Source of the DNA: the human T2T-CHM13v2.0 reference genome, Homo sapiens
Direction: 5' to 3' (one strand)
DNA: 64,000 nucleotides
Assembly: GCF_009914755.1 (NCBI RefSeq)
Contig: NC_060940.1
A program made the position numbers and the translations under genes. Of this stretch, positions 57,052-58,060 are shown piece after piece. Position 1 is the stretch's first letter, and each line of letters opens with the position of its first letter. Under the pieces are notes generated by a model. That model had not been told where the DNA came from, made no database searches, and was given only the letters and a program-made list of their open reading frames with translations.

Positions 57052-58060
57052 ACGGAGTCTTGCTCTGTCACCAGGCTGGAGTGCAGTGGTGCGATCTCGG
57101 CTCACTGCAACCTCCACCTCCCGGGTTAAAGCCATTCTCCTGCCTCAGCCTCCCGAGTAGCTGGGACTACAGGCACAAGCCACCATGCCCACCTAATTTT
57201 TGTATTTTTAGTAGAGATGGAGTTTCACCATGTTGGCCAGAATGATCTCGATCTCCTTTTTTTTAATTAAAAAGTAAACTTTAATGTCGAAAATGCAAAC
57301 TTGGGGAGGGCAGAAAGATCACACACAAGGCTGTCACTTCACACGTGGAAGGTTGCACAGCGGCTGGGCAGAGACGCTCCTCACTTCCCAGATGGTGAGG
57401 GGGCCGGGCAGAGGCGCTCCTCACTTCCCAGACGGTGCAGGGGCTGGGCAGAGGCACTCCTCCCTTACAAAGGGTGAGGGGGCTGGGCAGAGGTGCTCCT
57501 CACTTTCCAGACAGGGCGGTGGCTGGGCAGAAGCGCTCCTCACTTCCCAGATGGGACGGTGGCTGGGCAGAGGCGCTTCTCATTTCCCAGACGGTGAGGA
57601 GGCCGGGCAGAGGCACGCCTCACTTCGCAGACGGGATGGCGGCGAGGCAGAGGCGCTCCTTACTTCCCAGACAGGGCGGCTGGGCAGAGGCGCTCCTGAC
57701 TTCCCATACCGTGAGGCGGCCGGGCAGAGGTGCTCGTCACTTCCCAGATGGGGTGGAGGCCGGGCAGAGGCGGTGCTCCTTCTCAATTCCCAGATGGTGG
57801 GCAGCTGGGTAGAGGCACTCCTCACTTCCCAGACAGGGCAGTGGCCAGGCAGAAGCACTCCTCACTTCCCAGAGTGTAAGGGGGCCGGGCAGAGGCACTC
57901 CTTGCTTCGCAGACAGGACGGCAGCCAGGCAGAGGCGCTCCTCACTTCCCAGATGGTGCAGGCAGAGATGCTCCTCAGGTCTCAATCTCTTGACCTCCTG
58001 ATCCGCCCGCCTGGGCCTCCCAAAGTGCTGGATTACAGGCGTGGGCCACCACGCCTGCCC
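57052..58060 (-). mobile_element. AluSc-like element (57052-57257 and 57978-58060) split by SVA2; tail removed by splicing
   Basis: Begins 'acggagtcttgctctgtcaccagg' with no T tract; resumes 'ggtctcaatctcttgacctc...caaagtgctggattacaggcgtg'. Confidence 0.9.
57258..57977 (-). mobile_element. SVA2 element (VNTR + unique 3' end + poly(A))
   Basis: T-run, then 'aaagtaaactttaatgtcgaaaatgcaaacttggggagggcagaaagatcacacacaaggctgtcacttcacac', then ~40-bp 'gggcagaggcgctcctcacttcccaga' repeats; degenerate TSD at 57244-57257 and 57978-57991; no CCCTCT hexamer or SINE-R. Confidence 0.85.

What the first reader, a model, noticed from the sequence alone, without database searches (positions are those of the whole stretch)
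57244..58060. UPF0607 3' end is built from nested retroelements, suggesting mobilisation in both directions
Seen, minus strand: the ORF's last codons and stop (GRRGGPRL*, TAA at 58035-58033) come from the Alu head ('ggcaggcgtggtggcccacgcctgtaa'). An SVA2 then splits the Alu (TSD 11/14) and supplies ATTAAA (57285-57280) and an A tract. Inference: a sense mRNA would read ORF-Alu-VNTR-poly(A), an SVA-like L1 substrate, while the other arm of the same Alu gives the splice acceptor for the opposite-strand SPTLC1 chimera. One Alu/SVA2 module could thus serve two opposite retrotransposable transcripts.
Basis: partly seen in the sequence, partly recalled or inferred. Interest (0 to 1): 0.7.

Follow-up and report, generated by a model that had tools for sequence, protein, structure and literature searches.

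The report
Gene spread backwards inside SPTLC1 retrocopies
The stacked Alu and SVA2 repeats at the end of this human pseudogene are real, but all ten RNA-derived copies found were made from the opposite strand, nine of them as a backwards passenger on a shortened SPTLC1 message, and none from the gene's own message; the passenger's reading frame may have been kept by selection in some copies.

Summary
The anatomy is confirmed: the Alu head gives the last codons and stop, an SVA2 splits the Alu (TSD 11/14; empty site seen at chr10:80.73), and the Alu right arm gives the acceptor for SPTLC1 exon 3. The two-way idea fails its own test. Of 20 genomic loci holding the ORF's 3' part (20 of 20 candidates scored), ten are retrocopies. 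All ten end in a poly(A) on the opposite strand. Nine carry spliced SPTLC1 exons 1-3; one older copy is cut inside the VNTR. None ends at the SVA2 poly(A). Markers of this SVA2 (5' junction, a private repeat unit) occur only in these known loci. The Alu truncated a longer NPAP1-like frame; the module lacks SVA's 5' domains. What is really here: an intronless POM121-family gene, duplicated antisense into SPTLC1 intron 3, rode on a cryptic SPTLC1 isoform with 1.4 kb of its upstream DNA. All nine SPTLC1 retrocopies found are this chimera. Six of nine keep a 407-416 codon frame, with fewer stops than expected (weak signal). This window's copy is frameshifted. Sense polyadenylation at the SVA2 was not testable. 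I found no description of the route in the searchable literature.

The parts
56759..56772 (+). 5' target-site duplication of the whole 3.9-kb retrocopy (12/14 to 60687-60700), after an A/T-rich L1 endonuclease-type site
56773..56848 (+). SPTLC1 exon 1 (end of 5' UTR, ATG at 56792)
   Evidence: PDB match to serine palmitoyltransferase 1, E 1e-34
56849..56956 (+). SPTLC1 exon 2, joined without intron
56957..57051 (+). SPTLC1 exon 3, joined without intron; premature stop at 56984-56986 in this copy
57052..57243 (-). Right part of the Alu, cut at the antisense splice acceptor (its tail was removed with the intron); first bases of the chimera's terminal exon
57244..57257 (-). 3' TSD of the SVA2 inside the Alu
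   Evidence: empty site in L043
57257..57358 (-). SVA2 unique tail with ATTAAA (57285-57280) and eight A (57264-57257)
57359..57977 (-). SVA2 VNTR, about 15 units of 39-40 bp; private unit at 57457-57482
57978..58060 (-). Alu head including the 5' TSD of the SVA2 (57991-57978); gives the last 8 codons and the stop (58035-58033)
58033..59279 (-). UPF0607 / NPAP1-like frame (POM121 family); 416 codons in intact paralogs, frameshifted near 58491 here
59280..60676 (-). 1.4 kb upstream of the UPF0607 ATG carried inside the retrocopy; GC-rich near the ATG; part matches DNA upstream of the chr15 NPAP1-type gene; the annotated lncRNA LOC101927605 starts here on the + strand (59359)
   Evidence: hub annotation
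60659..60687 (+). ATTAAA (60659-60664) and poly(A) (60677-60687) of the antisense chimera
60687..60700 (+). 3' target-site duplication of the retrocopy

Best explanation
This locus is a 3.9-kb retrocopy of a spliced SPTLC1 transcript (exons 1-3 joined to an antisense Alu acceptor) whose last exon carries the SVA2, the UPF0607 frame and 1.4 kb of its upstream DNA backwards, likely inserted by the L1 machinery; all ten retrocopies found used this strand. Order of events: (1) an Alu inserted into an intronless NPAP1-like frame and truncated it, its head supplying the stop (shown: Alu TSD and NPAP1 homology resuming after the Alu); (2) DNA duplicates went to chr10 before the SVA2 arrived (shown for chr10:80.73); (3) an SVA2 inserted into the Alu (shown); (4) one old antisense retrocopy went to chr8:36.6, about 7% diverged at non-CpG sites (shown; its driver transcript is unknown); (5) a DNA duplicate came to lie antisense in SPTLC1 intron 3 (inferred from homology limits); (6) the Alu tail served as acceptor and a cryptic ATTAAA as poly(A) signal, and this isoform gave nine near-full-length copies in a burst, about 2.2% apart (shown; roughly great-ape age is my recalled calibration). 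Because the gene travels backwards, each copy keeps its own upstream region and the SVA2 poly(A) signal, so it could be transcribed in sense at the new site (inferred, untested). No sense message left a detectable copy.
For: Nine copies share both ends and lose homology at once outside them; all nine have poly(A) at the same antisense site within 8 nt, and 7 of 9 have a clear TSD, 2 weak. Exons 1-3 are spliced; search with them gave 13 of 13 candidates: 9 retrocopies, 3 parental exons, 1 duplicated exon 3. The canonical SPTLC1 3' end has no copy (1 of 1). Antisense 3' end search, 29 of 29 candidates scored: 10 retrocopies, 3 chr9 DNA copies, the rest older homologs or short repeat matches. chr8:36.6 has the same poly(A) site and a 10-nt TSD, and is cut inside the VNTR. 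ORF 3' search, 20 of 20 scored. Junction pattern 12 hits, control 0; private unit 11 hits, control 0. Tree: the nine, the SPTLC1 parent and chr9:94.58 form one clade (support 100), unresolved inside. NPAP1 homology before (aa 1-363) and after the Alu (from about aa 370-410 on).
Against: Sense copies shorter than about 220 nt, or old ones cut inside the VNTR, would look like ordinary SVA2s and are not excluded: the tail search scored 40 of 581 candidates, and the private unit is not detected at chr9:100.01. Two chr10 loci (88.26, 51.54) and the two chr9:92 loci were classified from hit coordinates only and were not fetched. One haploid human genome was searched; no other primates, no polymorphic insertions, no RNA data. 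The tree does not order the nine copies, and shared changes conflict among copies.
Confidence: 0.88

Rival explanations
1. Two-way mobilisation: a sense ORF-Alu-VNTR-poly(A) message was also an L1 substrate and left copies.
For: The sense strand has an ATTAAA 16 nt before an A tract, and other SVA2s end at this same place. The RefSeq span ends at 57257. The VNTR has been proposed to matter for mobilisation (PMC3287187 passages; PMC4432496 abstract).
Against: 0 of 10 retrocopies; no extra locus. No hexamer or antisense Alu-like domain.
Confidence: 0.06
2. The copies spread by DNA-level duplication of one first retrocopy.
For: DNA duplication did make the chr9 and chr10 loci: homology runs on for kilobases.
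Against: The nine have unrelated flanks, different TSDs, 5' ends that differ by up to about 25 nt and poly(A) starts that differ by up to 8 nt.
Confidence: 0.02
3. The route is as described but the passengers are dead: open frames reflect young age and chance, and nothing is transcribed in sense.
For: dN/dS is not below 1 (1.28-1.40); one of 11 control frames also lacks stops (P 0.022); the frameshift deficit alone is not significant (P 0.16); parent and window copies are broken; RefSeq calls this a pseudogene.
Against: 1 new stop against 5.3-7.6 expected (P 0.009-0.03); 6 of 9 open against P(open) 0.25 each (P 0.011-0.021); non-CpG change density 0.125 in the ORF against 0.083-0.091 in the flank.
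Confidence: 0.6
4. Antisense transcription of this gene family is older than SPTLC1 capture: the chr8:36.6 copy came from another antisense RNA at a chr9 ancestor, and SPTLC1 only added a strong promoter to an existing antisense poly(A) site.
For: chr8:36.6 is equally far (about 7%) from chr9:100.01 and the SPTLC1 parent and uses the same poly(A) site. A chr9 NPAP1 pseudogene is reported to be transcribed antisense as a piRNA cluster (PMC4436662, passages; I did not map it to one of my loci).
Against: Its 5' end is lost, so an SPTLC1 origin is not excluded.
Confidence: 0.5

Closest known systems
UPF0607 / NPAP1 / NPAP1L, POM121-related retrogenes (Neumann et al. 2014, PMC3942032; main text parts 1-3 of 4 and Table S2 read)
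   Same: Intronless, primate UPF0607 group related to NPAP1; Pfam POM121 match; ATG aligns with the chr15 gene's ATG.
   Different: The paper says only 'duplicated or retrotransposed' and names two UPF0607 groups; it does not mention SPTLC1, the Alu truncation, the SVA2 or an antisense route in the parts read.
Processed pseudogenes of alternatively spliced, Alu-exonised isoforms (L1 retroposition)
   Same: Spliced exons, poly(A), TSDs, endonuclease-type sites; antisense Alu tail used as acceptor (established knowledge). Alus in 3' UTRs, antisense more than sense, are enriched in pseudogene parents (PMC5199112, passages).
   Different: The cargo is a whole second gene backwards; all nine SPTLC1 retrocopies found are the chimera and none is the canonical message; nine of ten are near full length at about 4 kb.
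Retrocopies with an inherited promoter (Carelli et al. 2016, PMC4772013, passages: about 3% of expressed retrocopies)
   Same: Upstream regulatory DNA travels inside the retroposed RNA.
   Different: There the promoter is a downstream alternative promoter of the same parent; here it belongs to an antisense nested gene. Promoter activity is untested here.
SVA2 and VNTR composites SVA, LAVA, PVA, FVA (PMC4432496, PMC3287187, PMC5753468; passages)
   Same: The inserted element is an ordinary SVA2: 39-40 bp units, unique tail, poly(A), TSD.
   Different: The ORF-Alu-VNTR unit did not become a mobile composite: no daughter ends at its poly(A).

Membership tests
SVA2 | VNTR of 39-40 bp units | tested here: met
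   definition in PMC4432496 passages
SVA2 | Short unique 3' tail and poly(A), no SINE-R | tested here: met
   Tail shared with dispersed loci that have their own flanks; no Repbase consensus was available for direct comparison
SVA2 | TSD and empty site | tested here: met
   10-13/14 in 11 copies; intact Alu at chr10:80.73
VNTR composite retrotransposon (SVA/LAVA/PVA/FVA kind) for the ORF-Alu-VNTR unit | 5' hexamer repeat plus antisense Alu-like domain | tested here: not met
   83-nt sense Alu head only
VNTR composite retrotransposon (SVA/LAVA/PVA/FVA kind) for the ORF-Alu-VNTR unit | Daughter copies ending at the element's own poly(A) with independent TSDs | tested here: not met
   0 of 10 retrocopies
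VNTR composite retrotransposon (SVA/LAVA/PVA/FVA kind) for the ORF-Alu-VNTR unit | Sense transcript polyadenylated at the element's end | not testable with these tools
   No RNA data; RefSeq span ends at 57257
L1-type processed pseudogene of SPTLC1 | Precise intron loss | tested here: met
   Three junctions
L1-type processed pseudogene of SPTLC1 | Poly(A) and TSD | tested here: met
   Poly(A) 9 of 9, clear TSD 7 of 9
UPF0607 / POM121-related | Intronless frame homologous to NPAP1 and POM121 | tested here: met
   PF15229 E 9e-18 for the chr1 copy, 6e-15 for the window; 41-45% identity to the chr15 gene
Functional retrogene | Open frame, selection and expression | tested here: inconclusive
   Window copy broken; 6 of 9 open; stop deficit P 0.009-0.03; dN/dS 1.3-1.4; expression not testable

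The most novel reading that the evidence does not exclude
A hominoid gene family multiplied as a backwards stowaway: a cryptic SPTLC1 isoform carried a complete antisense expression unit (own promoter region, 416-codon nucleoporin-related frame, SVA2 poly(A) signal) to nine new sites, and several copies are working, fast-evolving retrogenes now filed as pseudogenes.
Probability: 0.25. Interest if true: 0.72.

Novelty: new variant of a known kind. Interest (0 to 1): 0.42.

Why it matters
It explains how the UPF0607 family expanded, and shows a way round the rule that retrocopies lose their promoters: a gene nested antisense in a terminal exon moves whole. It also records a cryptic SPTLC1 isoform that, by inference, was abundant or favoured in the ancestral germ line. 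If the open frames are selected, up to six unannotated human retrogenes follow. The two-way claim itself would have mattered for the origin of VNTR composites but has no support.

Tried and rejected
Sense route: looked for by ends of all fetched paralogs, by the 5' junction, the private unit, the 3' junction (9 hits, all known; indels in the A tract hide others) and ORF searches: none. chr8:36.6 first looked like a sense candidate (ORF, Alu head, VNTR, then unrelated DNA) but is a 5'-truncated antisense copy. chr10:80.73 was checked as a sense read-through copy: homology runs over 3.3 kb past the Alu to the end of the compared sequence with no poly(A). SVA2 loci with an Alu nearby (L021, L023) are separate insertions at another Alu position with their own TSDs. 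The tree did not resolve order within the burst. One search was swamped by an Alu and was repeated without it. One search was badly formed (519 general papers; none of the 40 listed holds SPTLC1). The 13% distance of chr8:36.6 is inflated, probably by alignment round its internal deletion; the flank-only value is about 7%.

Full report
Observation. The Alu starts at 58060 on the minus strand, supplies GRRGGPRL and the stop at 58035-58033, and is split by an SVA2 between TSD copies at 57991-57978 and 57257-57244 (11/14). The match alone is not rare (23 of 63,986 window positions); the proof is the uninterrupted Alu at chr10:80.73. The SVA2 has about 15 units of 40 bp and a tail shared with dispersed loci that have their own TSDs, so ATTAAA and the A tract are standard parts of it. 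In this copy a 1-nt deletion near 58491 splits the frame into 276 and 123 aa.

The whole element. Homology with eight other loci begins and ends at the same places, window about 56773 and 60677. On the plus strand it reads SPTLC1 exons 1-3 (identity from PDB; exons located on chr9), an exact splice to the antisense Alu (parent: GT, 2,270-nt intron, T tract and AG), then the SVA2, the UPF0607 frame and 1.4 kb of upstream DNA backwards, ATTAAA at 60659 and poly(A) at 60677-60687. All nine have poly(A) there; 7 of 9 have a clear TSD and two (chr2:68.54, chr6:23.72) a weak one. Their 5' ends lie about 12-38 nt upstream of the SPTLC1 ATG.

An Alu-free search with the ORF's 3' part scored 20 of 20 candidates: nine young retrocopies (chr1:151.2, chr2:68.54, chr6:23.72, chr6:64.37, chr8:27.29, chr9:28.16, chr10:31.39, chr13:76.88, this window); three chr9 DNA copies with a whole Alu and NPAP1-like DNA continuing (104.27 in SPTLC1 intron 3, 94.58, 100.01); chr8:36.6; three chr10 loci; chr9:99.98, 92.02, 92.52 and chr15:22.41. 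I read the ends of 15 of the 20 and the 5' part of the chr15 gene. The four not fetched are chr10:88.26 and 51.54 (same hit limits as 80.73, no SVA2 junction) and the chr9:92 pair (hits stop before the Alu head). chr9:99.98 loses homology before the Alu position. chr8:36.6 is a tenth antisense retrocopy, cut 5' inside the VNTR, with the same poly(A) site and a 10-nt TSD. Result: antisense 10 of 10, sense 0 of 10.

Shorter sense copies. The Alu|SVA2 junction occurs 12 times with up to 3 mismatches, control 0; all 12 are in the list above. A VNTR unit private to the young source, about 200 nt from the SVA2 poly(A), occurs 11 times in 10 loci, control 0, all known. Sense copies shorter than about 220 nt, or older ones cut within the VNTR, remain possible: the tail search scored only 40 of 581 candidates.

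Bias of the parent. All nine retrocopies with SPTLC1 exons 1-3 are the chimera (13 of 13 candidates), and the canonical last exon and 3' UTR have no copy (1 of 1). The antisense 3' end search (29 of 29) found no additional short copies. Why this isoform was favoured is not shown; germ-line abundance or a role of the antisense Alu/VNTR are guesses.

Order. The Alu has a TSD, perfect over 15 nt at chr10:80.73, and homology to the chr15 gene (589 codons read; named NPAP1 from its place and from recall) covers aa 1-363 before the Alu and resumes after it: the Alu truncated a longer frame, so the Alu-derived stop is an accident of insertion. chr10:80.73 lacks both the SVA2 and a 50-nt inverted duplication found in all SVA2-bearing copies. 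chr8:36.6, chr9:100.01 and the young clade are about 7% apart at non-CpG flank sites; the nine are 1.4-3.1% apart, mean 2.2%. The young clade has support 100 and is a star inside. Dating these to early catarrhine and great-ape times rests on recalled divergence values; Table S2 of PMC3942032 lists orangutan UPF0607a and b and a marmoset entry.

Is the passenger alive? Five of nine retrocopies keep 416 codons and one 407; the window, chr6:23.72, chr6:64.37, the parent and chr9:94.58 are broken. Against a majority sequence, the nine show 1 new stop where 5.3-7.6 are expected (P 0.009-0.03), 3 frameshifts against 8 in a flank of similar length (P 0.16), combined P 0.010; 6 of 9 open has P 0.011-0.021, or 0.33 if frameshifts are left out of the expectation. 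dN/dS is 1.28-1.40 (P 0.02-0.12 by counting rule). Against: one of 11 control frames also lacks stops (P 0.022), the tests are not independent, and shared changes conflict among copies, which may mean recurrence or gene conversion. This is a lead only. The hub annotation places a lncRNA start at 59359 head to head with the pseudogene start at 59370, inside the carried upstream DNA, which fits a carried two-way promoter (inference; predicted model).

Literature. PMC3942032 (main text parts 1-3 of 4, Table S2; Table S1 not read) defines the family and does not give this route. Passages only: PMC4432496 (plus abstract), PMC3287187, PMC5753468, PMC5199112, PMC4772013, PMC5470649, PMC4436662, PMC5724859 (LOC729159 on chr16, function unknown), PMC7140787; PMC2584115 has no SPTLC1 in its main text. 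Searches: UPF0607 3 papers, NPAP1L with NPAP1 1, SPTLC1 with processed pseudogene 5, SPTLC1P1-5 11, SPTLC1 with retrocop 0, locus names 13; by listing none describes the chimera. Subscription papers on VNTR composites, and the supplements and databases of retrocopy surveys, were not seen and may list these loci as SPTLC1 pseudogenes.

Verdict. Observation right; two-way mobilisation unsupported; the one-way antisense passenger route is well supported and appears undescribed in what I could search. New variant of a known kind, interest 0.42.

Noticed in passing
window 58150-58200 and 58499-58552: Inverted repeat of about 52 nt (91%) inside the ORF; the downstream arm is absent at chr10:80.73 and present in all SVA2-bearing copies, so a templated inverted insertion added about 17 codons before the Alu.
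   Followed up: partly
L040 (chr8:27.29), at the SVA2: The VNTR and 5' TSD are replaced by about 33 nt of inverted VNTR; flanks are collinear and the ORF is intact. Deletion with template switch, during or after retroposition.
   Followed up: partly
L041 (chr9:100.01): A second Alu is inserted inverted into the SVA2 tail, and the ORF start is internally duplicated; frame from the first ATG is 498 aa and stops just before the Alu.
   Followed up: no
L042 (chr8:36.6): Old retrocopy has a 650-nt internal deletion between two similar stretches and a later Alu in the ORF start.
   Followed up: partly
L032 (chr9:94.58): DNA duplicate of the SPTLC1 intron 3 region that includes exon 3 but no match to exons 1-2; same age as the retrocopy burst.
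   Followed up: partly
L034, L035, L037, L040, plus strand of the chimera: Four retrocopies keep a 122-codon SPTLC1-Alu fusion frame (one lacks the ATG): SPTLC1 N-terminus plus an Alu-derived tail.
   Followed up: no
VNTR of the young copies: VNTR length ranges from 622 (window) to 1,225 nt in the 9 young copies measured, despite about 2% divergence elsewhere.
   Followed up: no
L021 and L023: Two more SVA2s inserted into Alus, both at the mid-Alu A-rich linker, independent of this one.
   Followed up: no
window 59359 onward, + strand: Predicted lncRNA LOC101927605 starts inside the retrocopy, head to head with the UPF0607 start, and its first two exons lie within it (hub annotation).
   Followed up: no
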